NCBI GenBank assembly: GCA_001777665.1
Contig: MFEQ01000004.1
Location: 129,331 to 193,330, forward strand
Length of the DNA: 64,000 nucleotides
Source: Candidatus Doudnabacteria bacterium RIFCSPHIGHO2_02_FULL_42_25
GTDB taxonomy: Bacteria; Patescibacteriota; Doudnabacteria; UBA920; O2-02-FULL-48-8
Direction of reading: 5' to 3'
Of the stretch, positions 12,119 through 62,677 are shown one piece after another. A model generated the notes under the pieces. That model saw nothing but the letters and a program-made list of their open reading frames with translations, was not told where the DNA came from and ran no database searches. The position numbers and the translations under genes were made by a program. Numbering within the stretch: the first letter of the stretch is position 1; every line of letters begins with the position of its first letter.

Positions 12119-12119
12119 A

Positions 12120-13013: not shown

Positions 13014-13016
13014 TTG

Positions 13017-14846: not shown

Positions 14847-14847
14847 T

Positions 14848-15540: not shown

Positions 15541-15972
15541 CTATTCTTTGTTTAAAAGTTGCTTTTCTTCAGATGTCTTTTGATCTAACAAATAAGCTAA
15601 TTTTTTTAACCGACTTTCGCTGGCAACATCAGTTTTCGGGGCTACAGGCTCTTCTTTTTTTTCAACTTTAAACGTCATGTTGGTATTCAGTTCTTCTCGT
15701 TTGAAAACTCTGACTTGCGGCTTTAAATAAAAACTAATAAAAGCTGGAAAGTAGCTAAGCATGGGTAACCCGTTAAATTTCCCGAATGCCATAAGTAACC
15801 CGAGAAGACCTATTGGAATAGCAAAAAAGAAAAAGAACACTGACAGCTTAAGCAGAGAAAAAAACATCAAAATCAATCCACCAGTCACGAGCAGGACTAA
15901 AAATTGCTTCAATGTTAAAGGACCGATCAGTTTATCTTCAACGTCAGTGAATTGTGGGACTCCAAACTGCAT
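15541..15972 (-). CDS. Small two-TM membrane protein (VirB3/PrgI-like position)
   Basis: Two hydrophobic helices. Its position before the virB4-like gene matches VirB3-like proteins. Confidence 0.4.
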   Translation of the reverse strand: MQFGVPQFTDVEDKLIGPLTLKQFLVLLVTGGLILMFFSLLKLSVFFFFFAIPIGLLGLLMAFGKFNGLPMLSYFPAFISFYLKPQVRVFKREELNTNMTFKVEKKEEPVAPKTDVASESRLKKLAYLLDQKTSEEKQLLNKE

Positions 15973-15983
15973 AGTATGCGATC

Positions 15984-16024
15984 CGAATCTACGAATTCCA
16001 TGCGAATGACACGAATATGCGAAT
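15984..16024. promoter_or_regulatory. Five phased CGAAT copies (8-11 nt spacing) 12-52 nt upstream of the 15972 start codon
   Basis: tcCGAATc, taCGAATt, tgCGAATg, caCGAATa, tgCGAATt read directly from the sequence. Confidence 0.5.
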
Positions 16025-16129
16025 TTCTGTAGATTTTTTTGTTTCTAAATGATTAAACTTGATAATATTATAACACAAGTGGCACTGAAAGGCAAAATTT
16101 GTCCATTCTTTGTCACTGATGACAATGCG

Positions 16130-16567
16130 TTAGTGTATAAAATTCCGCAGCCATTTCGTCCAGCCTTCGCCTTCATCTTCCCAAATTGACCAAAATCGGG
16201 CAGGGGTCACAATCTTTACCCCTTTAAATTTCTCTACTTTCAATAGATGCTTATCCGACGTAACCAAAAAATCAGCTTCCGAAGCAACTGCTGATTCCAG
16301 AATTTTATTATCCTCTCTATCCTCTACAATATTTAGATGCACGGAATTCTCAATTGGCCTAACTAACTCAAAAAAATATTCTAGTTTTTTTTGAAAACCC
16401 TCATCAAGAATTTTTTTATCGGCCAGAAATTTATTTTCTCTCAAAGTTGCCTTATTCGCGTAAGCTTCTATCCGGCCTGCTATTACCAAATCTAAAATGC
16501 GGTTGGCATAATGGTAAAAATCTTCCGAGGCATCGATAAGCGCATTGGTATCTATAACAACTTTCAT
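16130..16567 (-). CDS. PIN-domain nuclease family protein
   Basis: N-terminal VVIDTNALIDA and C-terminal DFLVTSDKHLL, both PIN-type motifs. Confidence 0.6.
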   Translation of the reverse strand: MKVVIDTNALIDASEDFYHYANRILDLVIAGRIEAYANKATLRENKFLADKKILDEGFQKKLEYFFELVRPIENSVHLNIVEDREDNKILESAVASEADFLVTSDKHLLKVEKFKGVKIVTPARFWSIWEDEGEGWTKWLRNFIH

Positions 16568-17313
16568 AGAGTAACAGAATTCTTATCTTTCTTATCATCC
16601 CTATCGTCCTTATCATCCCTATCATTCTTATTGTTCTTATCATTCCTACTTAACCTATTATCCTTCAAAAATTGCTGCAACCATTTTTCTCCTTCATCAA
16701 TTTGTTTTTGTCTCTGTTTAATTTTGCTAGCTACCGTTACCTCGTCTGATTGGCTATAAGATTTTTCAACAGCACGTAGTTGTTGATCGACCAAAAAAGC
16801 AGCCTGATGAATCAAGCAAATCACACAATTCGCCGCTTTTTCCCGGTCATTTAAATAGGATAAATAAGGATAATAAGTCGGATAGGTCCGATAGGTCGGG
16901 GAGTTATCATCCTTATTGTCCCTATCATCTCTATTGTTCCTATTATCCCTATCATTCTTATCTTTCCTATCATCCTTATTATTCTTATTGTCCTTATAAT
17001 ATACAATCTTTCTCACTGCTATAGATTCGGGATGATTTTTGTCCCACTGATTCAAATTTCTCTGCCTCAAAAAGTCCTCATAATCCCCTAAAAGTTCGCC
17101 CAAGGAAAATCTTGATGCGCCAAGCAAATTAATTTTAATTTTTTCTGAGGTTTTATTTTCTGATGCCTCGACAATATTTTGTTTCCCGTCGCGAGCAGCG
17201 CCAATCATTTGGGTGGTAATTTTATGGTTGGTAATATATTTTTGACAAAATTCCACAGTGTAATCATAAACAATTGTTGCTTGCTGATAAGATTTTAAAT
17301 CTTTATAGGACAT
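16564..17313 (-). CDS. Four-helix-bundle protein (TIGR02436-like) with long low-complexity K/D/N/R extensions
   Basis: N-terminal 90 aa resemble the four-helix-bundle family (MSYKDLKSYQQA...QMIGAARDGKQNIVEASE...INLLGASRFSLGELLGDYEDF). Two K/D/N/R tracts are encoded by the 9-nt repeats. Confidence 0.5.
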   Translation of the reverse strand: MSYKDLKSYQQATIVYDYTVEFCQKYITNHKITTQMIGAARDGKQNIVEASENKTSEKIKINLLGASRFSLGELLGDYEDFLRQRNLNQWDKNHPESIAVRKIVYYKDNKNNKDDRKDKNDRDNRNNRDDRDNKDDNSPTYRTYPTYYPYLSYLNDREKAANCVICLIHQAAFLVDQQLRAVEKSYSQSDEVTVASKIKQRQKQIDEGEKWLQQFLKDNRLSRNDKNNKNDRDDKDDRDDKKDKNSVTL

Positions 17314-30063: not shown

Positions 30064-31836
30064 TTACTGAACAGTACCGCCACCCCGACTATCTAGAACA
30101 TCATCATTAATTGTCGATGTCGTGACTTCGTTGACAGTATTGGTTTCTATTAATTGAGAAGTGAAGACATCTGTTCCCATGGCTTTTATATTTGAAAGTA
30201 AGTTCATGGCTTTGTTTCGATCGACTTCACTTGGTGTCACGGCTATTTGAAATGAAACTCGTGCCACTGGAATAAATTTTCCTGTAAACGCTGGAATGTC
30301 TCCGATGTTCCATGTTATTTTTCCAGAATTCGGATCGTACGTTAGTCGATTTTTTTCTGCATCTGGGACGACAACATTTTTCCAAGATTGAGATGGTAGT
30401 GGCAATGACGCAACTACTTTTGTATTTGATAAATCATTACTGCCGTTGGAAAGCATTAGGGTCATGTTAAATAATGTTGTTTTTCCAACTTGCAGCGGAG
30501 CAGCACCTGAAACGTAATCACCGTGGACGTTCAAAGTCAACTCTGATCCCAATTTCAAAACCACATCACCGGCTCTGGTTGGTTTCTGGATTTCATCGGA
30601 AGAAATTTGTGCAGTAGCTTTAATAGTTTGATTTTTTAGATTAGTACTATAACTGTCCACAATTGGAATGCGAAAATCAATTTCACCACGCTCCATTGGT
30701 GATAAAACACTTAATCCTGGAAGGGTGGCTGCTTTCCACGTCAGAGTTCGATCAGACAGAATGGCATTGTCAGCTTGCAATCTGGGTATATCCAACGAAG
30801 CACCTTCCAAATTGACGACAACAACAATATTATTCAAACCGATAGATCCTTGATTCGCATAGTTGAGAGTAAAACTAATTGTTTGATCGAGATTTACAAT
30901 ACCATCCTCTACGTCTGAACTAAGTGTTAATGCCAAAGCAGAAGGCATAATTTGAAAAGTCCCAGTAGAAATTAGCTGTGAAGCAAAAATGTTATTTATA
31001 ATTTGACCCAGCTCTGCTTTCACTAATTTAACCTCGGAATTTTCTCCAGTAAAACTCCCGGTGATTTCTAAAGATAACGAGCTTCCCGTAGCAATTTTGG
31101 GTAATTTCCAATAATTGTTATCTTTGGTCACAGGAATATTACTGCTCGTGTAATTAAATCCTTCAGGATAAGTCATGATTAATACCAAATTATCAAAATC
31201 CTGACTCGTGACGTTAGTAAAATTGACTGAAAAAGTCGTATCCTGTCCCCCGACGACATCTATCGGACCGTTGATTTCCATGGTCAGATTTGGAGGCAAA
31301 ATACTAGTCTGGATAGTTGTTTCAGCTGCGAATTCTGAATTAAAGTTCGACAATCGATAATGCATGACAGCTTTGATCTGTTTGCTCTCGCCTGTCCCGC
31401 CAGTTAATTTCCCGCGAATAATTATCTCGGCTTCCTTGCCTTCTTTCAAAACCGGTAAATTAAATATATTCCCTACCGATGAAGTCGCCTGCGGTGTTGA
31501 TGATTTAAATTTAAATCCGGTTGGGTAAAACAATTGCAGCGAAATATTAGTCAAGTCAGCGTTTTCGTCATTTTTATAAACTACTCGATATTCAGCTTCA
31601 TTACCTGAAACCAGTTGATCCGGTCCTTCGATGACTAGGGACACGCTATCTGGTGTCTGGACTGCTGGTTGTTTATTTCCAAAAATAACGTAGGCTCCCA
31701 CGCCCAGCAACAGTAAAACACAACCGATGGCGACATATATCAATCCCTTGCCTTTAAAAAAGCTCGGCTGTTGGGGTTGAGTAATTTCCATCGGTAACTC
31801 TGACCGAGTATTGGGGTCTAAAATTTGGTCGTCCAT
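30064..31836 (-). CDS. Membrane-anchored surface protein with repeated beta-sandwich domains
   Basis: N-terminal TM segment (LIYVAIGCVLLLLGVGAYVIF). Large Thr/Ser/Asn-rich ectodomain with internal repeats. Confidence 0.45.
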   Translation of the reverse strand: MDDQILDPNTRSELPMEITQPQQPSFFKGKGLIYVAIGCVLLLLGVGAYVIFGNKQPAVQTPDSVSLVIEGPDQLVSGNEAEYRVVYKNDENADLTNISLQLFYPTGFKFKSSTPQATSSVGNIFNLPVLKEGKEAEIIIRGKLTGGTGESKQIKAVMHYRLSNFNSEFAAETTIQTSILPPNLTMEINGPIDVVGGQDTTFSVNFTNVTSQDFDNLVLIMTYPEGFNYTSSNIPVTKDNNYWKLPKIATGSSLSLEITGSFTGENSEVKLVKAELGQIINNIFASQLISTGTFQIMPSALALTLSSDVEDGIVNLDQTISFTLNYANQGSIGLNNIVVVVNLEGASLDIPRLQADNAILSDRTLTWKAATLPGLSVLSPMERGEIDFRIPIVDSYSTNLKNQTIKATAQISSDEIQKPTRAGDVVLKLGSELTLNVHGDYVSGAAPLQVGKTTLFNMTLMLSNGSNDLSNTKVVASLPLPSQSWKNVVVPDAEKNRLTYDPNSGKITWNIGDIPAFTGKFIPVARVSFQIAVTPSEVDRNKAMNLLSNIKAMGTDVFTSQLIETNTVNEVTTSTINDDVLDSRGGGTVQ

Positions 31837-32354
31837 ACGGGCCTTTCTAATATATATTCAATAAATTTATTAATGGTGGTGTGATCAACCTCTTTCTCTT
31901 CTGGAAACCTGAACCCGAGTGTATCTAATAAATCCAAAGAAAATTTATCTAAGATCTTATAGTCAGCTGGGTAATAATCAGGATGGTTCAAGTTATGCAA
32001 AAAATCGATCAGTAAATCAAAAGCAACAGAATTTGGATGTTCATCAGCAGTCATTTTCAGCATCAATTCTGCTCCATAAAGCCCGATCGCCATTTTCTGC
32101 AAGTCTTGATGAATACTGTTGTATTGTTTGACAGGTTTGGCTCCAATCAGAACTGGGAAATTCCCACCGGCGACATCAACTTCACAAAGCGATAGATCCT
32201 GTAAAGCAAACGCCAGTTTACTTTTGGGTAAACGAATAGACTTAGCCAAAATCCGTACTTTACCTAAATCTTTAGTCCATAATGTCAGGATCTGGTCCGC
32301 TTCTTTATAGTTTTGTTTTTTGAGGATTACTCCGGTGTGTTTGCGATATTTCAT
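31818..32354 (-). CDS. recO: DNA repair protein RecO (short form, 178 aa)
   Basis: The N-terminal OB-fold segment resembles RecO (GVILKKQNYKEADQILTLWTKDLGKVRILAKSIR). It lacks the usual C-terminal zinc finger. Confidence 0.55.
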   Translation of the reverse strand: MKYRKHTGVILKKQNYKEADQILTLWTKDLGKVRILAKSIRLPKSKLAFALQDLSLCEVDVAGGNFPVLIGAKPVKQYNSIHQDLQKMAIGLYGAELMLKMTADEHPNSVAFDLLIDFLHNLNHPDYYPADYKILDKFSLDLLDTLGFRFPEEKEVDHTTINKFIEYILERPVWTTKF

Positions 32355-35300
32355 TCTAATTTTATGGAGATTTTTTTACCTTCTATTTCCACTTCCTGCC
32401 CACCCTGACCCTTTTGTATTTCTTTCACATATGTCTTTTTACGATCAAATAACTCAAAGGCAACACTTAGTTCACCATCATTAGTATCATAAGTCAAATT
32501 TATGACTTCGCCAACCTTTAATCCTGATTTTTTGCGCATATCTTGGACCAATCGTTCTAATTCCGCTGCCAAGCCTTCTTTCTTGAGTTCAGGAGATATA
32601 GTCGAATCAAACTTTACAGTGTACGCATCTTTAACATTATCAAACTCAGCTTGTTTGAAATTCAACTCATCTAGTAAAATCTGTTCGAGCTCAGGAGTGA
32701 GTTGATTTTTCCCAACCGTTGAATATTTAAGAACGCCCAATGGTTGACGAAGCTTTATATTTGCAGCTTTTCTAGCACTCAATCCTTCGACAACTAATGT
32801 TCTCACCTGCTCCATAAAGTACAAAACGCTTGGCTGTGAAATTTGGTCTTTAGTTTCAGGCCAACTTGCTAAGTGTACTGATTCTTTATCTCCCTCAGCT
32901 TTTAACTCCTGCCACAATGACTCGGCCACGAAAGGGACAAATGGTGCAAGTAAAATGCTTAAAGTTTTTAAAACTTTATTTAGCGTCTGATAAAAAGCCG
33001 GGCCTTTACGATCTCTTGAACGTCGAACATACCAAGTCGACAGTTCGTTTATAAATACTTCAATTTCCCGAGAAGCATGGAAAGCATCATAAGCCTGAAG
33101 ATACTCCGTGACCTGGTTCACCAACTTCTGTGTTCGCGTTAACATCCACTGATCTAAAATATCTAATTCTTTAACTTCTTTACTTGCATCCCACTGGTCA
33201 TGGTTAGCATAAGTAACGAAAAACGAAAGTACATTCCAAAGAATTACGAAATTTTTTCGCAAGACTAATTCAGCATCCCTTTCTCCAAATCGTTTATCAT
33301 CACCTGGTTGATTCACTGAATACATATACCAACGTAGAGAATCAACACCATATTTGTTAATCACAGACCAAGGATCGATGACGTTCCCTTTAGACTTGCT
33401 CATCTTTTGACCCTTTGAGTCTAATAAGAATCCTAAGCTAATAACATTTTTATAAGATGGCCCTTTATCAAGTAATGTCGAAACTGCAAGTAATGTATAA
33501 AACCAACCACGGGTTTGATCAATGGCTTCTGAAATAAAATCGGCAGGAAATTGTTCTTTGTTCTCAATCTTCTCTTTATTCTCCATCGGATAATGCCACT
33601 GGGCAAAAGGCATAGATCCGGAGTCAAACCAGACATCCATAACTGCTGGGACTCTTTTAGCATCCTTATTACATTCTTTGCATTTTAAAACTACCTCATC
33701 GATATAAGGTCTATGAATATCAATAATAGCAACGTTCATTTCAAATGCTTGACCTTTGTGTGGATATGAGCGATCAGATCCAAAGTGTTTCTGCAAAGAA
33801 TACAAAGGATCCCCATGGCTAACTATGAGAATATTTTTTCCCTGATGTTTTTCATTCAAATCATTTATTAAACTAAGCATTCTGTCTCTTGCCTGAGTCC
33901 AAGTTTCTCCGCCTTTTGGAGCATCAGACCAGCGAATAGCATGCGGAAAATCGCGGTCGAACTCATCGTAGGTTCGACCATCATATTCACCACAATTCAG
34001 CTCATTTAAGCGTGGATCGATAATTAGTTCGACTTTGAGTTTTTTGTTAACAATTTCCGCAGTCTGCATCGTTCGGTTAAATTCAGAGCAGACGATCAAA
34101 TCGAATTTATCTAGCTTAGCTAATTCATCAGCTGTTGCTTGAACCAGCTTTTGACCTTTTTCAGTTAGCTGATCCATTTCGCTACCTGGTTTGGAACTAC
34201 AAACTCGTTTAACATTTGTATAAGCCTCGCCGTGTCGTAGGAAATAAAAATTATTTTTGGCGAGCCCTAAGTCCTTAATGCTACCTGGAACCGTAAGATG
34301 CTCTTGATCACATGTCCAGATTGGTAAAGGTGTCCCCCAATATCGTTCTCTAGAAATAGCCCAATCTTTCACCCCATCCAACCATTCTCCGAATCGTCCA
34401 TGTTTGATATAGTCGGGTGTCCAATTTATTTGTTCGTTATTTGCCTTTAGTTGATCTCGCAATTTACTCATAGCAATAAACCATGAATCTCTAGCGTAAT
34501 ACAGAAGTGGTGTGCCACATCGCCAACAATGAGGATATTCGTGTTTATATTTTTCAATCTTAAGCACCCGGTCCCCTAACAATTCAAAAATCTTTTGATC
34601 AGTTTTGTGATCTTTAACATACATTCCTGCCAAACCTGCGACTTCAGGAGTAAATCTTCCAGTTTCGTCCACCGTGTGATGCTTGGGTAATCCTAACTCT
34701 TCACCTAATTGATAGTCATCCTCACCATACATAACTGCTGTATGCACAACACCTGTTCCATCTTCAGTATTTACAAAATCTGCAGCATAAACTTTATAGG
34801 ATTTATCCGATTTGAGTTCAGGAATATCAAATAGTGGTTCGTATTCCAAACCTACAAGATCCTTACCCTTATATTGCTGTTTTGTGCGATCGTCAATTTT
34901 AGTAATATCCGAAAAAGTAGAATTCACTCGGTCTTTCGCAACAATATAAAATTCTCCATCCTTTTCGACTTTGAAATAATCAATATCTCCCCCCACTGCT
35001 AACGCAACATTCCCAGGCAGAGTCCAAGGAGTTGTGGTCCAAGACAAAATATAAGTGTTGGGTTCACTCCTTAACTTAAACTTAACGTAAACAGATTGAT
35101 CAGAGACAGTTTGATAACCCTGTGCAACTTCATGCGAAGAAAGTGCTGTGCCACATCTTGGGCAATAAGGCACGACTTTGTGGCCTAGATAAATTAATTT
35201 TTTATCGTTAATCTCCTTTACTATCGACCACACGGATTCGATATAGGAATTAGAGTAAGTAATATAGGGATTATCCAAATCAACCCAAAAGCCCATTCGC

Positions 35301-35725
35301 TTAGTGAGTTTTTCCCAATCCTCTTTGTATTGCCACACAGATTCTCTGCAAAGTCGATTAAATTCAATAATGCTGTCACGCACATTTGGTTTAATCGATT
35401 CGATTTGTTTTTTTCCCGAAATTCCAAGTTTTTTTTCAACTTCTAATTCGACTGGGAGTCCGTGTGTGTCCCAACCACCTTTACGAGAAACGAATTTCCC
35501 AAGCATTGTCTGGAATCTTGGAAATAAATCTTTAAATGCTCTTGCTTCTACGTGGTGAATGCCTGGTTTGCCATTTGCTGTGGGAGGACCTTCAAAAAAC
35601 ACAAACCTTTCACCGTTTTTGGTTTGCTCCAAAGATTTGGCAAAAATTTGGTTCTCTTCCCAAAATTTTAAAATCTCTTCCTCTAGCTCTGGAAACTTTG
35701 GTTTGGGCTCTATAGGCTTAAACAT
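32351..35725 (-). CDS. ileS: Isoleucine--tRNA ligase with an inserted histidine-phosphatase (PGAM-like) domain
   Basis: Catalytic signatures (PPTANGKPGIHHV, KMSKS), CP1 editing domain, WCxxC...HRPYID zinc region. Residues about 491-661 (nt about 33745-34255) carry the RHGE and SHGD motifs of histidine phosphatases. Confidence 0.9.
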   Translation of the reverse strand: MFKPIEPKPKFPELEEEILKFWEENQIFAKSLEQTKNGERFVFFEGPPTANGKPGIHHVEARAFKDLFPRFQTMLGKFVSRKGGWDTHGLPVELEVEKKLGISGKKQIESIKPNVRDSIIEFNRLCRESVWQYKEDWEKLTKRMGFWVDLDNPYITYSNSYIESVWSIVKEINDKKLIYLGHKVVPYCPRCGTALSSHEVAQGYQTVSDQSVYVKFKLRSEPNTYILSWTTTPWTLPGNVALAVGGDIDYFKVEKDGEFYIVAKDRVNSTFSDITKIDDRTKQQYKGKDLVGLEYEPLFDIPELKSDKSYKVYAADFVNTEDGTGVVHTAVMYGEDDYQLGEELGLPKHHTVDETGRFTPEVAGLAGMYVKDHKTDQKIFELLGDRVLKIEKYKHEYPHCWRCGTPLLYYARDSWFIAMSKLRDQLKANNEQINWTPDYIKHGRFGEWLDGVKDWAISRERYWGTPLPIWTCDQEHLTVPGSIKDLGLAKNNFYFLRHGEAYTNVKRVCSSKPGSEMDQLTEKGQKLVQATADELAKLDKFDLIVCSEFNRTMQTAEIVNKKLKVELIIDPRLNELNCGEYDGRTYDEFDRDFPHAIRWSDAPKGGETWTQARDRMLSLINDLNEKHQGKNILIVSHGDPLYSLQKHFGSDRSYPHKGQAFEMNVAIIDIHRPYIDEVVLKCKECNKDAKRVPAVMDVWFDSGSMPFAQWHYPMENKEKIENKEQFPADFISEAIDQTRGWFYTLLAVSTLLDKGPSYKNVISLGFLLDSKGQKMSKSKGNVIDPWSVINKYGVDSLRWYMYSVNQPGDDKRFGERDAELVLRKNFVILWNVLSFFVTYANHDQWDASKEVKELDILDQWMLTRTQKLVNQVTEYLQAYDAFHASREIEVFINELSTWYVRRSRDRKGPAFYQTLNKVLKTLSILLAPFVPFVAESLWQELKAEGDKESVHLASWPETKDQISQPSVLYFMEQVRTLVVEGLSARKAANIKLRQPLGVLKYSTVGKNQLTPELEQILLDELNFKQAEFDNVKDAYTVKFDSTISPELKKEGLAAELERLVQDMRKKSGLKVGEVINLTYDTNDGELSVAFELFDRKKTYVKEIQKGQGGQEVEIEGKKISIKLE

Positions 35726-35774: not shown

Positions 35775-36170
35775 CTAATCTTTTCCCTGAGAGTTTAGAA
35801 CTCTTTTTGCTTTTAAATATTGATCTCTAAAATTTACAAGCAATCCCAATCTTTTGTTATATGCAACTAAATATCTTTTAACTTGATAATACTCTTCTCT
35901 CCCAAGAACTCTTGTACACTTAATCTCTAAAATTATTTTATCTTCGATAATGAAATCTACTTTATTTCTCCCGGGCATTTCACCGGCAAAACTCGGTGGC
36001 AACAATTTTTCTCGCTCGTATTTAATAGAAGCATTTTTAAATTTCGCTTCAATTGCATCAGCATATTGCTTCTCATTACACGATCTTCCAAGCTCGTTGT
36101 GAACCGTAAACAAAATACCCGTTATTTTATATGACAGTTCAGGATATATTAATCCAGTACTTATTGGCAT
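35775..36170 (-). CDS. GxxExxY-family protein
   Basis: ELSYKITGILFTVHNELG...GEMPGRNKVDFIIEDKIILEIKC...GLLVNF matches the GxxExxY (TIGR04256-like) pattern. Confidence 0.65.
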   Translation of the reverse strand: MPISTGLIYPELSYKITGILFTVHNELGRSCNEKQYADAIEAKFKNASIKYEREKLLPPSFAGEMPGRNKVDFIIEDKIILEIKCTRVLGREEYYQVKRYLVAYNKRLGLLVNFRDQYLKAKRVLNSQGKD

Positions 36171-36453: not shown

Positions 36454-38133
36454 TCACATTTCCTCTAAGGGATCAATGCCGAGTAGCTGGAGTCCTTTGG
36501 AAAGCGTGTTTTTTGATAGATTTATCAGAGCCAATCGGGAATTTTTTATTTGTTCATCCGGTTCCGCTATTACTGGGCTCTCATGATAAAACTTGTTAAT
36601 CAGACCGGCTAAGTCATAGAGATAGTTAGCCAACACATTCGGCATGTATTCTTTCATAGCATCAACCACGACCTCATCAAAGGTCGAGATCTTGAACAAA
36701 ATCTCTCTCTCTGTTGGAGTTAAGGATGTAGAATGTAGTACGTAGGATGTAGGGCCAACCTTGCGGAGAATACTTGCCAATCGTGCGTATGAATATTGAA
36801 TATACGGACCGCTGTTTCCTTCGAAGTCCAGTGCTTTGTCCCAATCAAACTCTATATCACTGTGTCGGTTGTGTGATAAATCAAAATATTTAATCGCTCC
36901 GATGGCCACAGCATTCACGACATCTTTCGCTTTTGCTAATTCTGGATTTTTATCTGCAATAATTTTTGCGACTTTTTCTTTCGCTGCCGCCAGCACTTCC
37001 TCTACCAGAACCATGTTACCCTTTCTAGTAGACAGCGCTTGGCCTTTGAAACTCATAAATCCATAATCCACATGCACGCCCTCATCATCTTTCATGTATC
37101 CTAGTTTATGCAGAATGGCGAACAGTTGTTTGAACGCATGAGACTGCCTGACATCCACGACATATAATTGTTTGGTAAACCCTTGGCTTTGACGAAAAAT
37201 AAAAGTCGCCAAATCGCGCAACAAATATGTGGTGCCACGATCCGACTTCACTATCAACCCTATCCCCAATCCTTCTGGTTCCAAATCTACAATTTGCGCG
37301 CCTTGAGATTCTTTCAAAAGATTTTTTGATTTGAGATCCATCAGAACTTTGGGCATTTTGTCGTGATAGAAACTTTCGGGCCAATGGTTATCGAACGGTT
37401 CTATGTTCATCAATTCGTTGATAGTCAAAAATTTCTTCATACTCAAATCCACAAACTTTGTCCAAAGTGCGTGGTTCTGAGTATCACCATGTTCTAATTT
37501 GACAAACTCTTGTTTTGCCTCTTCTCGAAGTTTAGGGTCTGCTTCAGCTTCTTCATTAATCTTTACATATAATTTATTTAACTCACCGATTGGATCATTT
37601 TCCAGTAATCCTTCATTGCCATATTTTTTGTAAGCCAGCAAAATCAATCCGAACTGCGTACCCCAATCTCCCATATGAGTATCGGATTGAACTTGATAAC
37701 CTAAATATCGGAGCATCCGCAAAATAGCGTCACCGATGATAGCAGTGCGCAAATGCCCAATATGCAAAGGCTTCGCAATATTTGGCTGGAAATATTCGAC
37801 TAACACGCGTTCTTTTGTTACGTGTTCCATGTTACGTGCCACATGTTCAACCAAATAATCATTCTTCAAAGTAAAGTTAATAAAACCAGGGGCAGCGACT
37901 TCTACTTTTTCAAACTCTTGGCTTTTTAATTTTTCCGCCAAAGTCCGCGCTAAGTCCATTGGCTTTAAGTCCGCGTTTTTTGCTAAAATCAAAGCCGCGT
38001 TGGTGGCATAGTCCCCCAACCTCGATTCGGCAACAGAAACTGTAATTTTCGATTTCTGATCCTCACCAACTGTAATACCCGCAGATTGCACTGCGCTTAT
38101 AATCATTTCTAGTATCTTATCTTTCATTAGCAT
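36454..38133 (-). CDS. argS: Arginine--tRNA ligase
   Basis: Class I HIGH (PLHIGHLR) and MSTR (KMSK-like) motifs, N-terminal add-1 domain, C-terminal DALR anticodon-binding domain. Confidence 0.9.
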   Translation of the reverse strand: MLMKDKILEMIISAVQSAGITVGEDQKSKITVSVAESRLGDYATNAALILAKNADLKPMDLARTLAEKLKSQEFEKVEVAAPGFINFTLKNDYLVEHVARNMEHVTKERVLVEYFQPNIAKPLHIGHLRTAIIGDAILRMLRYLGYQVQSDTHMGDWGTQFGLILLAYKKYGNEGLLENDPIGELNKLYVKINEEAEADPKLREEAKQEFVKLEHGDTQNHALWTKFVDLSMKKFLTINELMNIEPFDNHWPESFYHDKMPKVLMDLKSKNLLKESQGAQIVDLEPEGLGIGLIVKSDRGTTYLLRDLATFIFRQSQGFTKQLYVVDVRQSHAFKQLFAILHKLGYMKDDEGVHVDYGFMSFKGQALSTRKGNMVLVEEVLAAAKEKVAKIIADKNPELAKAKDVVNAVAIGAIKYFDLSHNRHSDIEFDWDKALDFEGNSGPYIQYSYARLASILRKVGPTSYVLHSTSLTPTEREILFKISTFDEVVVDAMKEYMPNVLANYLYDLAGLINKFYHESPVIAEPDEQIKNSRLALINLSKNTLSKGLQLLGIDPLEEM

Positions 38134-48658: not shown

Positions 48659-50299
48659 TTATTTAAAATCCAAATGCTTCATGGAGTAGTCAAATGATGC
48701 ATTGGCTTTCTTGTGAGGATTAAAAATTCCTTCTGAGTCAAAAATCTTTTTGGTTTGCTTAAATAAATGATAAACTTCCGCTCCAAACATTTGTTCAAGA
48801 TAAGGTCCTCTGACCATACCGTCGTTGTGTTCCCCCGTCATCGAGCCTTCGTACTCAAACACCAAATCATAAACTTCTTTGCCTAACTTTTTGATTATGC
48901 CCGCAACTTTGGGATCGCCGACTTTCATCAGTGGGATGATATGGAAATTACCATCTCCGACGTGTCCAGCCACTGTATATAATAGATTATACTTATCTAG
49001 AATTTTGTAAAGCTTAGGGAGAAATTCGCCCAAGACTTCTGGCCTGACCACAAAGTCATCGATAAACGGAGCTGTGCGCATGCCCTGGACGTGATGCCGA
49101 AGCATACTGAAACTTTCACGCCTTATGACCCAGTATTTTTCTGCACCGCTATCTGACAAAATCAATTTCGTCTTTAAATTAAACTCTTGCAAGCTTTTCT
49201 GGGCATCGCGAGCTAATTTAATCGCTTCAGCGTCTTTGTCAGAAGAAAACTCGACCAACATGACTAATTTCGGAATCCCACCTGTGAGCACCATCCAGGC
49301 TTCTGGAATGAAACTCAAAAATAATTTAATCGCATTGCCTTTGAGTTTAGCGATAATATCTGGAAGTAATTTCAAAGCGACTTTAAAGGTATGATCATCA
49401 TACGATTCGATGCTTTGCGGTTTAAATTTCAATAAATGATTTACAATTCCTGGCAACTGGTGCATGTCATTTAGAAACACCACTAATAAATGTTCACGGG
49501 TCTTTGGTTTAACAAGCTTTAATTTAAATTCTGTCATCAAACCCAAAGTTCCTTGCGATCCTACGATCAATTTTGTCAGGTCAAAAATTCCTTTGGCTTT
49601 ATCATAGACATTCCACAAATAATAACCTGCCGAATTTTTCGAAACCTTAGGCTTGGCTGATTGAAGCAACGCATAATTCTGATCAATCAAATCAAACATT
49701 TTAGTATAAATCTCACCTTCCAATCCTGCCGCATGTTTTTTCTTTTCTAATTCGGCCATTGTCAGAGGTTTAAATGTGGTTTCCTGGCCATCAGCTAAAA
49801 CCATTTTTACTTCTTGAATATAGCGTTCGGTTTTACCATATAACAAATTTAATTCCCCACCAGAATTATTGGCCACGATTCCGCCTAGCGCTGCTAAATC
49901 TTTCGACGCCGGATAACTAGGCAAAAGCAATTTTTTCTTCTTTGCTGCTTTTTCAAAATCACGATAATACACTCCCGGTTCGACGACTGCATAATCTTTG
50001 CCGATTTTTCTGATGTGATTAAAATATTTGGTAAATGAAACGACGATTGATTCGCTTAAATCCCCACCACTCATGTCAGTGCCAGCAGCTCTCGGAGTGA
50101 GCGACAAATTAAAACCGTGGCTGACTTTTTCCGCAACAAAATTCACCAAAGCTTGGACGTCTTTGGAATCTTTGGGAAAAACAACTACCTGAGGTGAAAC
50201 TTTATAGACGCTGGCGTCTTTGCTAAAAGTGTCGAGGGTTTGCCGGTCAGTTTTAACCTCTCCTTTTATTATATTTTGTATTTGTTTCTTTAGATCCAT
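48659..50299 (-). CDS. FAD-binding oxidoreductase (GlcD / D-lactate dehydrogenase family)
   Basis: FAD_binding_4-type N-terminal domain (VVFPKDSKDVQALVNF, AAGTDMSGG) and FAD-oxidase C-terminal domain. Confidence 0.75.
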   Translation of the reverse strand: MDLKKQIQNIIKGEVKTDRQTLDTFSKDASVYKVSPQVVVFPKDSKDVQALVNFVAEKVSHGFNLSLTPRAAGTDMSGGDLSESIVVSFTKYFNHIRKIGKDYAVVEPGVYYRDFEKAAKKKKLLLPSYPASKDLAALGGIVANNSGGELNLLYGKTERYIQEVKMVLADGQETTFKPLTMAELEKKKHAAGLEGEIYTKMFDLIDQNYALLQSAKPKVSKNSAGYYLWNVYDKAKGIFDLTKLIVGSQGTLGLMTEFKLKLVKPKTREHLLVVFLNDMHQLPGIVNHLLKFKPQSIESYDDHTFKVALKLLPDIIAKLKGNAIKLFLSFIPEAWMVLTGGIPKLVMLVEFSSDKDAEAIKLARDAQKSLQEFNLKTKLILSDSGAEKYWVIRRESFSMLRHHVQGMRTAPFIDDFVVRPEVLGEFLPKLYKILDKYNLLYTVAGHVGDGNFHIIPLMKVGDPKVAGIIKKLGKEVYDLVFEYEGSMTGEHNDGMVRGPYLEQMFGAEVYHLFKQTKKIFDSEGIFNPHKKANASFDYSMKHLDFK

Positions 50300-50363: not shown

Positions 50364-51146
50364 ATGAAACTAAATTTCGAATTATTTAATCCCAAGGGAT
50401 TTATCTCTGAACAACAGACAGATTTGATTATCACTGTCGTGGCTTTATTGCTGATTGCAGTCATCCCAGCCCTAGTCTTAACTTTTACCTTTGCCTGGAA
50501 ATACCGTGCTAGCAAGCAGTCAAAATTCACACCCAATGTCTCCGGTAATACGAAGTTACAACTAGGCTGGTTAGGGTTTCTCATTCTCATCATCATATCG
50601 GTCGGCACTCTTGCTTTCAAAAATAGTCACGCTCTGGATCCTCGAAAACCGATTCAGTCTGAAAAACAGGCAATCACAATCCAAGTCGTAGCGCTGGAAT
50701 GGAAATGGTTGTTTATATATCCGAACTCAAGTATCGCTAGTGTAAACTTTTTACAATTCCCTGAAGATACCCCGATCAATTTGGAGATTACGGCTGATGC
50801 CCCGATGAATTCGTTTTTGATTCCACAGCTAGGAGGCCAGATGTATGCAATGAACGGGATGAAAACTTCACTCCATATCATGGCCAATGAAGTTGGCGAT
50901 TATCGAGGGTTTTCATCCAACATTAGTGGGGAGGGATTTTCTGGGATGAAATTTACCGCCAGGGCTAGTTCAGACCGAGATTTCAATGCTTGGGTAGAAA
51001 CAGCTAGAATTAGCAGTGGTAGTTTAAATTACAATGAACTGGCTAAACCAAGTAAAAATAATTTACCTACTACTTATCTGGTGGCACAAACCGATTTATT
51101 TGATTCAATTGTTATGAAATATGGGGAGCCAATACATGTTCGGTAG
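50364..51146 (+). CDS. cyoA: Cytochrome bo3 ubiquinol oxidase subunit II (CyoA-like)
   Basis: Two N-terminal TM helices, then the cupredoxin-like domain (VALEWKWLFIYPN, IPQLGGQMYAMNGM). Confidence 0.8.
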   Translation: MKLNFELFNPKGFISEQQTDLIITVVALLLIAVIPALVLTFTFAWKYRASKQSKFTPNVSGNTKLQLGWLGFLILIIISVGTLAFKNSHALDPRKPIQSEKQAITIQVVALEWKWLFIYPNSSIASVNFLQFPEDTPINLEITADAPMNSFLIPQLGGQMYAMNGMKTSLHIMANEVGDYRGFSSNISGEGFSGMKFTARASSDRDFNAWVETARISSGSLNYNELAKPSKNNLPTTYLVAQTDLFDSIVMKYGEPIHVR

Positions 51147-53004
51147 ACTAAGCCTAGAAGCTCTACCCCACGAATGGTATACGCTGGGAGCAGTGGTCTC
51201 TTTAGGGCTTGGTGGTTTAGTTGCGGCAATTTTTCTGTCCAAAAAAAAGCTATGGGGTTGGTTATGGAATGAATGGTTGACTAGTACTGATCCGAAAAAA
51301 ATCGGCATCATGTATATCATCGTTGCCCTACTAATGTTATTCCGAGGATTCTTAGATGCTGCTATGCTCTGGTTCCAGCAAGCAGTTCTCAATGGAACAT
51401 CGTATGGATTAAGCGCTGATCATTTCCAGGAAATTTTCACTGCGCACGGTGTGATCATGGTGATTTTCGTCACTATGGGGTTGATGTTTGGCCTCATGAA
51501 CTATATTATCCCACTCCAAATCGGAGCCAGAGATGTCGCGTTTCCTTTTATCAATTCTTTGAGTTTTTGGCTCTATGTCGCTGGGGCGATTTTCCTCAAT
51601 CTATTTTTCGTCCTAGGCGGAGATTTTTCTTCCGCTGGGTGGCTGGCTTATCCCCCATTATCTGGATTGGAATATAGTCCCGGGGTCGGGGTGGATTATT
51701 GGATTTGGAGTTTACAAATTTCAGGACTAGGTACGCTTCTCGGGGGCATCAACATTTTGGTGACTATTCTCAAAATGCGAGCGCCAGGTATGACACTGAT
51801 GAAAATGCCAATGTTTACCTGGGCCACACTTTGCAGCATGGTTTTGATTGTTTCGACTTTCCCTCTCCTCACAGCTACTCTTGTCTTATTATCGCTGGAT
51901 CGATTGATCGGGACGCATTTTTTCACTTCTACCATGGGAGGTAACCCCATGATGTACGTCAATTTAATCTGGATGTGGGGGCATCCGGAAGTCTATATCA
52001 TCATGATCCCGTCATTTGGAATTTTTGCCCAAGTTGTTAGCACGTTTAGCCGAAAAAAATTATTTGGGTATAGCTGGACCGTGGCAAGTTTGATCGCAGT
52101 GACTCTTCTCTCGATGTTGGTTTGGCTCCACCACTTCTTTACCATGGGAGCAGGTGCTAACGTCAATGCATTCTTTGGAATTATGACTATGATCATCGCG
52201 ATCCCGACTGGAATTATTGTTTTTAATTCGATCATGACTATGTACCAGGGTAGGATTACATTCGGAACCCCCATGCTTTGGTTTTTGGGATTTGTCAGTA
52301 CCTTTTCTTTTGGCGGGATGGCTGGGGTCATGCTGTCAGTACCAGCGATAGATTTTCAGGTTCATAACAGTTTGTTTCTAGTCGCTCACTTCCATACTAT
52401 GGCTATAGGTGGAGCGTTATTCGGGATCTTCGCTGGATTTAGTTTCTGGTTTTCCAAAATTACTGGATTCAAACTGAATGAAAAAATTGGTAAAGCGGCA
52501 TTCTGGTGCTGGATAGTTGGATTTTTTGTTAGCTTCGTCCCCCTTTACGTCTTAGGCTTTATGGGTGCAACTCGTCGATTAGATCAGTATGACCCATCGA
52601 CTGGTTGGCAATCCTTATTTATTATTTCCTTCGTTGGGTTATTAATTATTGCAACCGGAGCCTTCCTCCAAGTTCTACAACTCATCCATGGGTTTCTGAA
52701 ACGAAATGAAAATAAAGATCTCACTGGTAATCCCTGGGAAGCAGAAGGCCTAGAATGGTCAACCTCTTCCCCGCCGCCTGATTACAATTTTGCTGTAATT
52801 CCAGGAACGAATAAAATCGAAGAATTTCACATGCCGAAAAATACCCCAATTGGAATTTACGTCTCTGGATTTGTGTTTTTGGTTGGATTTGGTGCAGTGT
52901 GGCATATATATTGGCTCACTGCATTAGGAATTATCGGAGCAATTATTTGTGTCATCATTCGAGCACTCGATGAAGATACAGAATACAAGGTTATACTCAA
53001 ATGA
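51121..53004 (+). CDS. cyoB: Cytochrome bo3 ubiquinol oxidase subunit I (CyoB-like)
   Basis: Heme-copper oxidase subunit I signatures (WAHHMF-like HHFFTMG, 12+ TM helices, His ligands). Confidence 0.9.
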   Translation: MGSQYMFGRLSLEALPHEWYTLGAVVSLGLGGLVAAIFLSKKKLWGWLWNEWLTSTDPKKIGIMYIIVALLMLFRGFLDAAMLWFQQAVLNGTSYGLSADHFQEIFTAHGVIMVIFVTMGLMFGLMNYIIPLQIGARDVAFPFINSLSFWLYVAGAIFLNLFFVLGGDFSSAGWLAYPPLSGLEYSPGVGVDYWIWSLQISGLGTLLGGINILVTILKMRAPGMTLMKMPMFTWATLCSMVLIVSTFPLLTATLVLLSLDRLIGTHFFTSTMGGNPMMYVNLIWMWGHPEVYIIMIPSFGIFAQVVSTFSRKKLFGYSWTVASLIAVTLLSMLVWLHHFFTMGAGANVNAFFGIMTMIIAIPTGIIVFNSIMTMYQGRITFGTPMLWFLGFVSTFSFGGMAGVMLSVPAIDFQVHNSLFLVAHFHTMAIGGALFGIFAGFSFWFSKITGFKLNEKIGKAAFWCWIVGFFVSFVPLYVLGFMGATRRLDQYDPSTGWQSLFIISFVGLLIIATGAFLQVLQLIHGFLKRNENKDLTGNPWEAEGLEWSTSSPPPDYNFAVIPGTNKIEEFHMPKNTPIGIYVSGFVFLVGFGAVWHIYWLTALGIIGAIICVIIRALDEDTEYKVILK

Positions 53005-53570: not shown

Positions 53571-53892
53571 ATCATACTTATTAGGATTTATACTTTCGAT
53601 CCTCCTGACAGTCGCAGCTTATTTATTAGTAGTGAACAACATGCTGTCGCAGGGGGTTCTGATCATCGTCATTCTGGCCCTAGCTGTCATCCAATTATGG
53701 GTGCAACTAATTATGTTTTTACATTTAGGCCAGGAAACTGGCCCGCGATGGAAATTGATTAGTTGGATCTCGACTGCCTCCGTCCTTTTGATTGTCGTTA
53801 TCGGTTCCATAGTGATTATGAACAATTTAAATTATCACGTGCCATCAGACCAAGAAATTATTGAAAATGAAGGAATACATCAATCTCACTAA
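53545..53892 (+). CDS. cyoD: Cytochrome o ubiquinol oxidase subunit IV
   Basis: Three-TM small subunit in the cyoD position. Confidence 0.7.
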   Translation: MSIFSLMFKSYLLGFILSILLTVAAYLLVVNNMLSQGVLIIVILALAVIQLWVQLIMFLHLGQETGPRWKLISWISTASVLLIVVIGSIVIMNNLNYHVPSDQEIIENEGIHQSH

Positions 53893-62651: not shown

Positions 62652-62677
62652 GGTATTAATATAACAAAAAACACCAG

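What the first reader, a model, noticed from the sequence alone, without database searches (positions are those of the whole stretch)
33745..34255. IleRS carrying an inserted histidine-phosphatase (PGAM-like) domain between the zinc-binding WCxxC segment and HRPYID
The 1124-aa IleRS has all the expected class-I features. Between ...WGTPLPIWTCDQEH... and ...HRPYIDEVVLKCKECNK... it contains an extra domain of about 170 aa. This domain starts FYFLRHGEAY (the RHG catalytic motif of the histidine phosphatase / phosphoglycerate mutase superfamily) and ends ILIVSHGDPLYSL (the second catalytic His motif). The insertion is in frame and sits in a surface-exposed connective region. No canonical IleRS I know of carries a phosphatase module here. 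It could supply a moonlighting activity or a regulatory nucleotide-phosphatase function, or be a domesticated intein-free insertion.
Basis: partly seen in the sequence, partly recalled or inferred. Interest (0 to 1): 0.75.

Follow-up and report, generated by a model that had tools for sequence, protein, structure and literature searches.

The report
Phosphatase domain nested inside IleRS
The enzyme that charges tRNA with isoleucine in this Candidatus Doudnabacteria genome has a complete, apparently active histidine-phosphatase domain inserted in its catalytic core; the two proteins are paired across the candidate phyla radiation, fused or as adjacent genes, and I found no paper describing this.

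Summary
The 1124-aa ORF at 32351-35725 (-) is a type-2 IleRS, passing the TIGR00392 equivalog. Residues ~488-668 are a His_Phos_1 domain (Pfam E=3.7e-35) inserted in the zinc-knuckle loop after WGTPLPIW; solved IleRS2 has ~10 residues there. It is not an artefact: the identical protein occurs on 22 contigs of Candidatus Doudnabacteria MAGs. It is not unique either: 110 of the 120 closest IleRS clusters carry the insert. In 282 insert-bearing segments the catalytic set R497/H498/R551/E575/H637 is kept in 281/281/281/270(+11 Asp)/281. New here: the closest free-standing homologues (~190 aa) are encoded directly upstream of insert-less ileS genes, between argS and ileS, in the same argS-ileS-recO synteny as the window. 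Other lineages carry a second intact copy, at a second knuckle hairpin or before the anticodon-binding domain. Several close relatives lost the insert cleanly. Best reading: an active PhoE-like phosphomonoesterase that is a dedicated partner of IleRS in Patescibacteria. Its substrate is unknown. A hidden metabolic phosphatase or mutase riding on IleRS is the main rival. Six literature searches found no description.

The parts
32351..35725 (-). ileS: 1124-aa type-2 isoleucyl-tRNA synthetase with nested phosphatase domain
   Evidence: ORF. TIGR00392 ileS equivalog 881 bits against cutoff 621. Pfam tRNA-synt_1, Anticodon_1, DUF5915 and His_Phos_1. Closest solved structures are PmIleRS2 8C8U-8C9D (35% id) and T. 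thermophilus 1ILE (39% id). 100% identical to OGE73766.1, Candidatus Doudnabacteria.
35552..35563 (-). Class I signature motif in its non-canonical form, G55-I-H-H58 (G/AxHH)
   Evidence: Sequence. 98 of 110 insert-bearing relatives have G/AxHH and 10 have HxGH. The motif class is described by Brkic et al. 2023, PMC10485003.
34298..35725 (-). N-terminal half of the catalytic (Rossmann/HUP) domain with the CP1 editing domain, up to the first half of the zinc knuckle (aa 1-476)
   Evidence: tRNA-synt_1 stretch aa 18-484. The editing-site residues T230-T232, W234, T235, G323, G325, H328 and D337 are invariant in the 117-sequence alignment.
34298..34312 (-). First half of the zinc knuckle, C472-D-Q-E-H476 (relatives: CxxC)
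   Evidence: Alignment: C472 in 105/110. The second Cys is present in 92/110 but is Q in the window.
33722..34264 (-). Nested histidine phosphatase (His_Phos_1, branch 1) domain, aa 488-668
   Evidence: Pfam E=1.5e-36 on the excised segment. PDB sequence hits: PhoE 1EBB/1H2E E about 1e-16, CobC, PspA, GpgP. Domain model pLDDT 94.1, TM 0.81 to PhoE. Below the cutoff of every specific NCBIfam phosphatase or mutase family.
34229..34237 (-). R497-H498-G499: catalytic RHG motif (H498 is the predicted phospho-acceptor)
   Evidence: R and H are each present in 281 of 282 insert-bearing segments, and in 110/110 of the nearest set.
34073..34075 (-). R551, second phosphate-binding arginine
   Evidence: 281/282.
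34001..34003 (-). E575, predicted proton donor (aligns to the LxE...G motif of PhoE)
   Evidence: 270 Glu + 11 Asp + 1 Ala of 282. Alignment to PhoE.
33815..33817 (-). H637 of the SHGD motif, second catalytic histidine
   Evidence: 281/282.
33671..33715 (-). Second half of the zinc knuckle: H671-RPYID ... C682-K-E-C685
   Evidence: C682 and C685 each in 106/110. Aligns to PmIleRS2 486-500.
33392..33406 (-). KMSKS loop (aa 774-778)
   Evidence: K774, S776 and K777 are invariant in A1.
32351..33154 (-). Anticodon-binding and type-2 C-terminal domains (aa 858-1124)
   Evidence: Anticodon_1 aa 858-998 and DUF5915 aa 1007-1124.
36454..38133 (-). argS (arginyl-tRNA synthetase), conserved upstream neighbour. 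In 'split' genomes the free-standing phosphatase gene lies between argS and ileS.
   Evidence: ORF. Synteny.
35775..36170 (-). PD-(D/E)XK (PDDEXK_3) gene occupying the argS-ileS gap in this genome
   Evidence: Pfam E=2.5e-26.
31818..32354 (-). recO, overlapping the ileS stop by 4 bases; conserved downstream neighbour
   Evidence: RecO_N and RecO_C. Synteny.

Best explanation
This is a complete, working type-2 IleRS of a Candidatus Doudnabacteria genome. A self-contained, catalytically competent PhoE-like histidine phosphatase is nested into the surface zinc-knuckle loop that follows the WGTPLPIW strand of the catalytic domain.

**Shown**
- The synthetase keeps its signature, editing and KMSKS motifs.
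- The phosphatase keeps the full catalytic set: H498 nucleophile, R497 and R551, E575 proton donor, H637.
- The same phosphatase family travels with IleRS throughout Patescibacteria. It occurs as one nested copy, as two nested copies at different loops, or as a separate gene immediately upstream of ileS.

**Inferred**
- The domain acts as a phosphomonoesterase through a phospho-His498 intermediate.
- It works as a dedicated physical partner of IleRS, in cis here and as a complex in 'split' genomes.
- It acts on a phosphomonoester that is made, used or encountered at IleRS. Candidates are a nucleotide-type small molecule or a phosphorylated tRNA(Ile) end.

The substrate is not determined by anything I could compute.
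For: - **Architecture and fold:**
- **IleRS integrity:** TIGR00392 scores 881 against a cutoff of 621. Editing and KMSKS residues are invariant.
- **Catalytic conservation despite fast divergence:** mean identity to the window is 38% in the insert and 58% in the body. Even so, R497, H498, R551 and H637 are each kept in 281 of 282 segments, and E575 is Glu or Asp in 281 of 282.
- **Breadth:** 110 of the 120 nearest IleRS clusters carry the insert. Most of the best 150 representatives span the junction query in one stretch. In the genome sample the 22 insert-bearing loci carry mostly Patescibacteria-type labels, while Firmicutes, Actinobacteria and archaeal loci have about 80 aa at the site.
- **Split form:** all eight close free-standing homologues with usable context lie next to argS and/or ileS (P0007, P0001, P0002, P0004, P0005, P0349, P0383, P0377). 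hp and ileS are 5 bp apart in L096 and overlap by 4 bp in L097. The free-standing family is large, with 2771 proteins at E<=1e-10. It shares the domain boundaries and motifs of the insert.
- **Repeated capture:** a second intact copy sits in the second knuckle hairpin (Peribacteria L019, L021, L022, P0219) or before Anticodon_1 (P0142, P0240). All copies keep R-H-N-R-E-E-R-H except P0226_d1, which keeps the core R-H-N-R-E...H but has Gln at the E607 and R615 positions.
- **Two IleRS clades:** the association occurs in two separate CPR IleRS clades.
- **Synteny:** argS-ileS-recO is shared by fused and split genomes.
Against: - No biochemical data exist for any member, and the substrate is unknown.
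- The insert was lost cleanly in several close relatives. P0041, P0047/P0051, P0076, P0116 and P0130 are nested in the fused clade in 100/100 bootstraps. No phosphatase gene lies nearby in L081 or L082/L083. The function is therefore dispensable there, or supplied from elsewhere.
- The nearest characterised relatives (PhoE, CobC, PspA, GpgP) act on small metabolites unrelated to translation.
- I could not read model coordinates, so the position of the phosphatase pocket relative to the synthetic site or the tRNA path is unknown.
- Use of several insertion points argues against a need for precise geometry.
- Conserved adjacency could reflect co-expression only.
- A few insert-bearing proteins carry non-CPR labels (Baltobacteraceae, Gammaproteobacteria, GC 0.57-0.62). 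I could not verify these labels.
Confidence: 0.6

Rival explanations
1. Hitch-hiking metabolic enzyme. The domain is an ordinary small-molecule enzyme of central metabolism, for example a divergent phosphoglycerate mutase or phosphatase, or a phosphoserine phosphatase. Its link to IleRS serves only co-expression, stability or stoichiometry in a streamlined genome, and its chemistry has nothing to do with aminoacylation.
For: The closest characterised relatives are metabolite phosphatases. The best NCBIfam hit is the short archaeal dPGM model. UniRef names a free-standing member 'Phosphoglycerate mutase' and JGI names others 'broad specificity phosphatase PhoE'. Jaffe et al. 2020 report PGM as apparently absent in several shallow Parcubacteria clades, possibly because the forms are too divergent for their HMM threshold. 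Clean losses of the insert show that IleRS does not need it.
Against: The insert scores far below every curated mutase or phosphatase cutoff: dPGM_arch 96 of 225, pgm_1 31.5 of 81.7, PspA 63 of 350, cobC 90 of 163. It is about 170 aa and matches the small phosphatases better than the 230-250 aa mutases (TM normalised to target 0.71 for PhoE against 0.50-0.62 for the dPGM/BPGM entries). An unrelated enzyme would not be expected to be captured by the same partner at three different loops, in two IleRS clades, and also to keep the immediately adjacent gene position.
Confidence: 0.25
2. Protein-directed or regulatory module. The domain dephosphorylates IleRS itself or another translation factor, for example reversing an inhibitory kinase. 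Alternatively its phospho-histidine state senses a phosphorylated metabolite and tunes IleRS activity.
For: The superfamily includes protein phosphatases, and SixA gives a weak NCBIfam hit. Tight cis or adjacent linkage to a single target protein is what a dedicated regulator would show. The confident full-length model, pTM 0.88 with high pLDDT across the linker regions, is compatible with a fixed docking on IleRS.
Against: There is no kinase partner in the conserved neighbourhood. The best sequence and structure matches are small-molecule phosphatases, not SixA, Sts or PGAM5-type enzymes. No phosphosite is known.
Confidence: 0.1
3. Catalytically inert structural or tRNA-binding appendage, or an artefact or selfish insertion (assembly chimera, intein-like element).
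For: Many synthetase appended domains are non-catalytic (general knowledge). The insertion site is a surface loop that tolerates length variation.
Against: The full catalytic set, including the proton donor, is retained in about 281 of 282 segments while the rest of the domain diverges to 30-45% identity. The fused insert is near-neutral (median pI 6.0), not basic. The identical protein is seen on 22 contigs, and homologous inserts occur in hundreds of independent assemblies. There are no intein or endonuclease domains. GC content across the insert (0.40-0.42) is close to that of the rest of the gene.
Confidence: 0.04

Closest known systems
Bacterial type-2 IleRS with the non-canonical G/AxHH signature (IleRS2; Brkic et al. 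2023, PMC10485003; structures 8C8U-8C9D, 1ILE)
   Same: Overall architecture: catalytic domain with CP1 editing, KMSKS, Anticodon_1, DUF5915-type C-terminus, and no C-terminal zinc-binding domain. 35-39% identity to solved IleRS2. GIHH motif of the G/AxHH class.
   Different: None of the solved or described IleRS2 has a domain in the zinc-knuckle loop. PmIleRS2 has about 10 residues where this protein has about 180. IleRS-focused papers from 2023-2026 that I searched do not mention a phosphatase.
PhoE / YhfR broad-specificity phosphatase of Bacillus stearothermophilus (1EBB, 1H2E), and other small branch-1 histidine phosphatases (CobC 6NRU/6E4B, PspA 4IJ5, GpgP 4PZ9)
   Same: Fold (TM 0.81, rmsd 2.8 A), size (about 170-200 aa) and catalytic residues. 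It works like these enzymes as far as sequence and model can show.
   Different: Only 23-27% identity. The loop after RHGxxxxN differs: the free-standing consensus is S-S-W-P-E and the window has SSKPGSE, against QGWQDSP in PhoE. It is below the cutoff of every curated subfamily. It is nested in, or encoded next to, IleRS.
Bifunctional RNase H / acid phosphatase (NCBIfam NF005567, PRK07238; the Rv2228c type, from my own knowledge)
   Same: A branch-1 histidine phosphatase domain joined to a nucleic-acid enzyme. It is the second-best NCBIfam match of the insert (92 bits).
   Different: That is a terminal fusion, not a nested insertion. The partner is RNase H. The score is far below the cutoff of 326, so the window domain is not a member.
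IleRS with an N-acetyltransferase domain (NCBIfam NF040702, ileS_w_GNAT)
   Same: A precedent, in a curated library, for an IleRS that carries an extra enzymatic domain.
   Different: The added domain is of a different type. The window protein scores 323 against a cutoff of 1999, so it is not a member.

Membership tests
Isoleucyl-tRNA synthetase, type 2 (TIGR00392 ileS) | Scores above the curated equivalog cutoff | tested here: met
   881.4 bits against cutoff 621.4, in two stretches interrupted by the insert.
Isoleucyl-tRNA synthetase, type 2 (TIGR00392 ileS) | Class I signature motifs (HxGH or its G/AxHH variant, and KMSKS) | tested here: met
   GIHH aa 55-58 and KMSKS aa 774-778. G/AxHH is documented as functional in IleRS2.
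Isoleucyl-tRNA synthetase, type 2 (TIGR00392 ileS) | CP1 editing domain with the Thr-rich peptide and the GTGxVHxA...D motif | tested here: met
   WTTTPWT aa 229-235 and GTGVVHTA...D337 are present and invariant in 117 sequences. The assignment of these motifs to the editing site rests on my own knowledge.
Isoleucyl-tRNA synthetase, type 2 (TIGR00392 ileS) | Type-2 C-terminal organisation (Anticodon_1 plus DUF5915-type domains, no C-terminal zinc-binding domain) | tested here: met
   Pfam Anticodon_1 aa 858-998 and DUF5915 aa 1007-1124. The best structural matches are IleRS2.
Isoleucyl-tRNA synthetase, type 2 (TIGR00392 ileS) | Charges tRNA(Ile) with isoleucine | not testable with these tools
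   Needs an aminoacylation assay.
Histidine phosphatase superfamily, branch 1 (PF00300) | Scores above the Pfam gathering threshold | tested here: met
   121.8 bits against 21.7, E=3.7e-35.
Histidine phosphatase superfamily, branch 1 (PF00300) | Catalytic core: RHG histidine, two arginines, second histidine, acidic proton donor | tested here: met
   R497, H498, R551, E575 and H637 are present. They are conserved in 281/281/281/281 (Glu or Asp)/281 of 282 segments.
Histidine phosphatase superfamily, branch 1 (PF00300) | Alpha/beta fold of the superfamily | tested here: met
   Domain model pLDDT 94.1. TM 0.81 to PhoE 1H2E and 0.80 to GpgP 4QIH.
Histidine phosphatase superfamily, branch 1 (PF00300) | Phosphatase or mutase activity through a phospho-histidine | not testable with these tools
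   Needs an enzyme assay with an H498A control.
Cofactor-dependent phosphoglycerate mutase (dPGM) | Reaches a curated dPGM family cutoff, and has the full-length (230-250 aa) mutase architecture | tested here: not met
   dPGM_arch 96.2 of 225, pgm_1 31.5 of 81.7, GpmB 57 of 261. The domain is about 170 aa. Alignments to dPGM cover only the N-terminal ~100 residues by sequence and give TM (target-normalised) 0.50-0.62.
Specific small phosphatase families (CobC, PspA, PhoE-type acid phosphatase, SixA) | Reaches the curated equivalog cutoff | tested here: not met
   cobC 89.8 of 162.9, PRK15004 72.9 of 250, PspA 62.7 of 350, PRK13462 54.6 of 226, sixA 33.1 of 74.5.
Intein or other selfish in-frame insertion | Hint/intein splicing blocks or a homing-endonuclease domain | tested here: not met
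   Pfam reports no such domain in the whole protein at E<=0.01. The inserted sequence is an ordinary enzyme domain that also exists as a free-standing gene.

The most novel reading that the evidence does not exclude
The phosphatase is a new kind of synthetase-coupled activity specific to Patescibacteria. It acts on tRNA(Ile) or on a nucleotide at the IleRS active site, for example by removing a blocking 3'-(pyro)phosphate from the CCA end or by processing a phosphorylated reaction by-product. IleRS would then carry a third catalytic site, in addition to synthesis and editing, that repairs or conditions its own substrate.
Probability: 0.2. Interest if true: 0.9.

Novelty: new variant of a known kind. 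Interest (0 to 1): 0.7.

Why it matters
Aminoacyl-tRNA synthetases are among the most conserved enzymes known. In bacteria, added domains are rare and usually non-catalytic. Here a second, apparently active enzyme is built into the catalytic core of an essential synthetase. The pairing is maintained in several forms across a very large bacterial radiation: one nested copy, two nested copies, or an adjacent and sometimes overlapping gene. That pattern is a strong genomic signal that the two proteins work together, yet no known function of IleRS calls for a phosphatase.

Resolving it could reveal either a new step in tRNA or IleRS biology in organisms with minimal genomes, or a hidden metabolic enzyme that current metabolic reconstructions of these organisms overlook because the protein is annotated only as a tRNA ligase. 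It is directly testable with one recombinant protein.

It also matters for annotation. GenBank names these proteins 'hypothetical protein' or 'class I tRNA ligase family protein'.

Tried and rejected
1. **Insert-only word-index search.** It returned only free-standing proteins and missed every fused homologue. The full-length and junction queries were needed.
2. **Charge argument for RNA binding.** Free-standing phosphatases are very basic (median pI 9.8) and fused inserts are near-neutral (pI 6.0). A same-genome control showed that neighbouring genes are just as basic in these low-GC Parcubacteria, and the L084 phosphatase is acidic. I rejected this as a composition effect.
3. **Direction of evolution (fusion or fission).** In an NJ tree of the domain, most free-standing forms make one clade nested among fused forms. 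The tree is star-like, has one distant outgroup and no bootstrap, so it is only suggestive. A first bootstrap attempt timed out.
4. **Remnant of a phosphatase gene** in the 340-bp argS-ileS gap of the insert-less L081: none found.
5. **A second phosphatase copy** elsewhere in the window: none found.
6. **Link between the G/AxHH motif and the insert:** none. All 10 insert-less relatives have GxHH, and 10 fused ones have HxGH.
7. **Canonical PGM or pyrophosphatase genes in the window:** none among the 30 larger ORFs (156 aa and up) scanned. This is uninformative for a 64-kb fragment.
8. **AFDB fold search** for organism names: the library was unavailable.
9. **Literature:** six searches with different wording found no description of the architecture.
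10. **Geometry:** I could not obtain model coordinates, so no distance between the phosphatase pocket and the synthetic site could be measured.
Full report
**The observation.** The minus-strand ORF 32351-35725 encodes a 1124-aa protein. The finding's coordinates correspond to residues 491-661. Pfam finds tRNA-synt_1 in two stretches, Anticodon_1, DUF5915, and His_Phos_1 (PF00300) at residues 493-649 with E=3.7e-35, 121.8 bits against a cutoff of 21.7. The whole protein passes NCBI's ileS equivalog, 881 bits against 621. Against solved IleRS2 from Priestia megaterium, the two flanks align to residues 403-475 and 486-565, so about 10 residues there are replaced by about 180 here.

AF2 models are confident. 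The full-length model has pLDDT 94.3 and pTM 0.88, with no dip across the insert or its linkers. The domain alone has pLDDT 94.1 and superposes on the phosphatase PhoE with TM 0.81 and rmsd 2.8 A. GC content across the insert is unremarkable. The identical protein is deposited from Candidatus Doudnabacteria MAGs (OGE73766.1 and three more accessions) and is seen on 22 contigs.

There are three small corrections. The class I signature is GIHH, not a canonical HxGH. The first half of the zinc knuckle has lost its second cysteine in this protein (CDQEH). The domain extends about 25 residues beyond SHGD to a final strand.

**How common it is.** A search with the insert alone found only free-standing phosphatases of about 190 aa. 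The full-length query showed that 110 of the 120 closest IleRS clusters (47-68% identity) carry PF00300 at the same place. In an exhaustive search with a junction-spanning query, most of the best 150 representatives of 50%-identity clusters cover the whole junction in one stretch.

In a sample of species-representative genomes, 22 loci had the long form. Nineteen of them carry Patescibacteria-type labels: Peregrinibacteria, Peribacteria, Yanofskybacteria, Wolfebacteria, Paceibacteria, Spechtbacterales and 'Saccharibacteria'. Type-2 IleRS from Firmicutes, Actinobacteria, Thermotogae and archaea have only about 80 residues between the flanking motifs. A few members carry other labels, such as Baltobacteraceae, and two high-GC 'Gammaproteobacteria' contigs. 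I could not verify these.

**Is the domain a live enzyme?** The insert evolves faster than the synthetase body: mean identity to the window is 38% against 58%. Across 282 insert-bearing segments the catalytic core is nonetheless almost untouched. R497, H498, R551 and H637 are each present in 281. E575 is Glu in 270 and Asp in 11. The few exceptions are fragments or single substitutions.

The closest solved relatives by sequence and by fold are small phosphomonoesterases: PhoE, CobC, metal-independent phosphoserine phosphatase and glucosyl-3-phosphoglycerate phosphatase. The longer phosphoglycerate mutases match less well. The domain reaches no curated subfamily cutoff in NCBIfam. It is therefore a member of the superfamily but of no characterised family.

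The synthetase itself looks intact. The editing-site and KMSKS residues are invariant in the 117-sequence alignment. The GIHH motif belongs to the G/AxHH class, which Brkic et al. showed to be catalytically competent in IleRS2.

**The decisive context result.** The closest free-standing homologues are not scattered in their genomes.
- In L084 the order is argS, phosphatase, insert-less ileS (975 aa), a small ORF, recO, then a CLIPPER/DUF11 protein.
- In L096 (Parcubacteria) the order is argS, phosphatase, ileS and recO, with 5 bp between phosphatase and ileS.
- In L097 (Portnoybacteria) the order is argS, an HTH gene, phosphatase, ileS and recO, with phosphatase and ileS overlapping by 4 bp.
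- In L093-L095 the order is argS, a radical-SAM gene, phosphatase, a PALP gene, ileS and recO.
- P0001, P0002, P0004 and P0005 also sit directly after argS. Where the contig continues, they are followed by an IleRS N-terminus, or in L088 lie next to a convergently oriented, insert-less ileS.
- Only the two weakest hits, P0008 and P0009, are elsewhere.

The window has the same neighbourhood: SmpB and tmRNA, argS, ileS, recO (overlapping ileS by 4 bases), then a DUF11 protein. The same order surrounds many fused ileS genes. The free-standing family is large, with 2771 proteins at E<=1e-10 and names such as Staskawiczbacteria, Portnoybacteria and Parcubacteria. It shares with the insert its boundaries, the L-x-x-N-x-[YF] lead-in, SHGDPL and the terminal G-[ED]-x-x-x-L strand. 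The same protein pair therefore exists fused in some genomes and as adjacent, sometimes overlapping genes in others. This is the classic genomic signature of a functional partnership.

**Repeated capture and loss.** Some IleRS of 1380-1490 aa carry two phosphatase domains, and all copies keep the catalytic core. In Peribacteria the second copy sits in the second hairpin of the same knuckle, between DLHKxxID and R[IV]PEV, and replaces the CxxC. In P0142 and P0240 it sits in the loop that leads into the anticodon-binding domain. The two copies are only 22-32% identical to each other, so these are old events.

In an NJ tree of the synthetase body, the split-genome IleRS and the Peregrinibacteria/Peribacteria fused IleRS form a clade separate from the window-type fused clade. 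Only 5-6 of 100 bootstraps join them to the exclusion of non-CPR IleRS. The partnership therefore spans two IleRS lineages. Conversely, six insert-less IleRS are nested inside the window-type clade in 100 of 100 bootstraps. They show a clean excision. In two cases with context, no phosphatase gene lies nearby. One of these, P0047, shares the window's gene order over more than 10 kb. The insert is thus not required for the synthetase to function.

**Mechanism.**
- Shown: a complete IleRS, a complete histidine-phosphatase active site under strong purifying selection, and a persistent physical or genetic link between the two.
- Inferred: the domain hydrolyses, or transfers, a phosphomonoester through phospho-His498. 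R497, R551 and H637 would hold the phosphate, and E575 would protonate the leaving group, as in PhoE-type enzymes. This mechanism is established knowledge of the superfamily.
- From fold topology: the chain enters and leaves the domain at the edge opposite the RHG end of strand 1. The pocket should therefore point away from the attachment point and be solvent-accessible. I could not check this on coordinates.

I commit to the reading that it is an active phosphatase that works as a dedicated partner of IleRS (confidence 0.6). The substrate is open. Candidates are a nucleotide-type small molecule or a phosphorylated tRNA(Ile) end. The main rival (0.25) is a metabolic enzyme, for example a divergent PGM or phosphoserine phosphatase, that merely rides on IleRS. 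A report that PGM appears to be missing in several shallow Parcubacteria clades keeps this rival alive. It is weakened by the failure to reach any mutase or phosphatase family cutoff and by the repeated, partner-specific capture. A regulatory or protein-phosphatase role (0.1) and an inert or artefactual insertion (0.04) are less likely. An attempt to support RNA binding from the basic charge of the free-standing proteins failed its same-genome control.

**Comparison with what is known, and novelty.** The synthetase is a member of type-2 IleRS of the G/AxHH class. The insert is a member of histidine phosphatase branch 1 and works like PhoE-type phosphatases, but it belongs to no characterised subfamily. 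Curated precedents for related ideas exist: an IleRS with a GNAT domain (NF040702) and an RNase H/acid phosphatase fusion (NF005567). This protein is a member of neither.

The proteins are in public databases under generic names. Six full-text searches and three IleRS-focused papers from 2023-2026 gave no description of a phosphatase in or next to IleRS. My search covers open-access papers and bioRxiv only. I rate it a new variant of a known kind, with interest 0.7. A specialist would be surprised by an active enzyme nested in the catalytic core of an essential synthetase and conserved in several arrangements across a major radiation. The question is directly testable.

Noticed in passing
window 35552-35563 (-), aa 55-58 of IleRS: The class I HIGH signature is GIHH, the non-canonical G/AxHH form. 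Brkic et al. 2023 link this form to mupirocin hyper-resistance in IleRS2. Among relatives, 98 of 110 fused and 10 of 10 insert-less sequences have G/AxHH, so it is independent of the insert.
   Followed up: partly
window 34298-34312 (-), aa 472-476: This IleRS has lost the second cysteine of the first CxxC of the zinc knuckle (CDQEH; H476 might substitute). Across 282 insert-bearing segments each of the three knuckle Cys positions scored is Cys in only about 70% (196-199 of 282), and the Peribacteria double-insert forms have lost the second CxxC altogether. Zinc binding at this knuckle seems to be decaying where the phosphatase is inserted.
   Followed up: partly
window 50364-54718 (+): A heme-copper quinol/cytochrome oxidase cluster: a subunit II-like protein (COX_ARM), COX1 (E=5e-137), a 189-aa ORF that I did not scan, and a UbiA-family prenyltransferase that may be a heme O synthase. 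An FAD-linked oxidase lies at 48659-50299 (-). Respiratory oxidases are unusual in candidate phyla radiation genomes.
   Followed up: no
window 35775-36170 (-); L082 3149-3505: The argS-ileS gap, where 'split' genomes carry the phosphatase gene, holds a PD-(D/E)XK (PDDEXK_3) gene in the window. In the syntenic relative L082, a bAvd/23S-rRNA-IVP family gene lies immediately upstream of ileS. The position upstream of ileS seems to be a landing site for small accessory genes.
   Followed up: no
window 11129-24691 (-): A run of large ORFs with no Pfam match (364, 297, 230, 249, 436, 950 and 317 aa), together with a TraG/VirB4-like P-loop ATPase (13017-14846) and an SdrD_B-domain protein (21807-23741). 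This may be a secretion or surface-structure gene cluster.
   Followed up: no
L019, L021, L022; P0219, P0142, P0240: IleRS variants of 1380-1490 aa carry two intact phosphatase domains at different insertion points. Histidine phosphatases are often dimers, so a second copy might form an intramolecular pair. This is speculation.
   Followed up: partly
L093-L095, 4838-7600: In one Parcubacteria lineage a HydE/PylB-like radical-SAM gene and a PALP-family gene (weakly threonine-synthase-like) flank the free-standing phosphatase between argS and ileS. Both score below the curated cutoffs.
   Followed up: partly
P0043-P0052, P0056 compared with the window protein: In this subgroup the insert and its immediate flanks are more similar to the window (43-49%) than in closer relatives (36-41%), while the synthetase body is more divergent (52-54% against 64-74%). 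This hints at recombination or unequal rates between insert and body.
   Followed up: no
window 57229-58401 (-) and 61884-62900 (-): A deoxyhypusine-synthase-family protein (E=6e-26) and an inositol-monophosphatase-family protein (E=6e-60). The first is an uncommon family in bacteria.
   Followed up: no
public annotation of the protein family: GenBank names the window's exact protein 'hypothetical protein' and many homologues 'class I tRNA ligase family protein', although they pass the ileS equivalog model. The insert appears to defeat automatic naming.
   Followed up: partly
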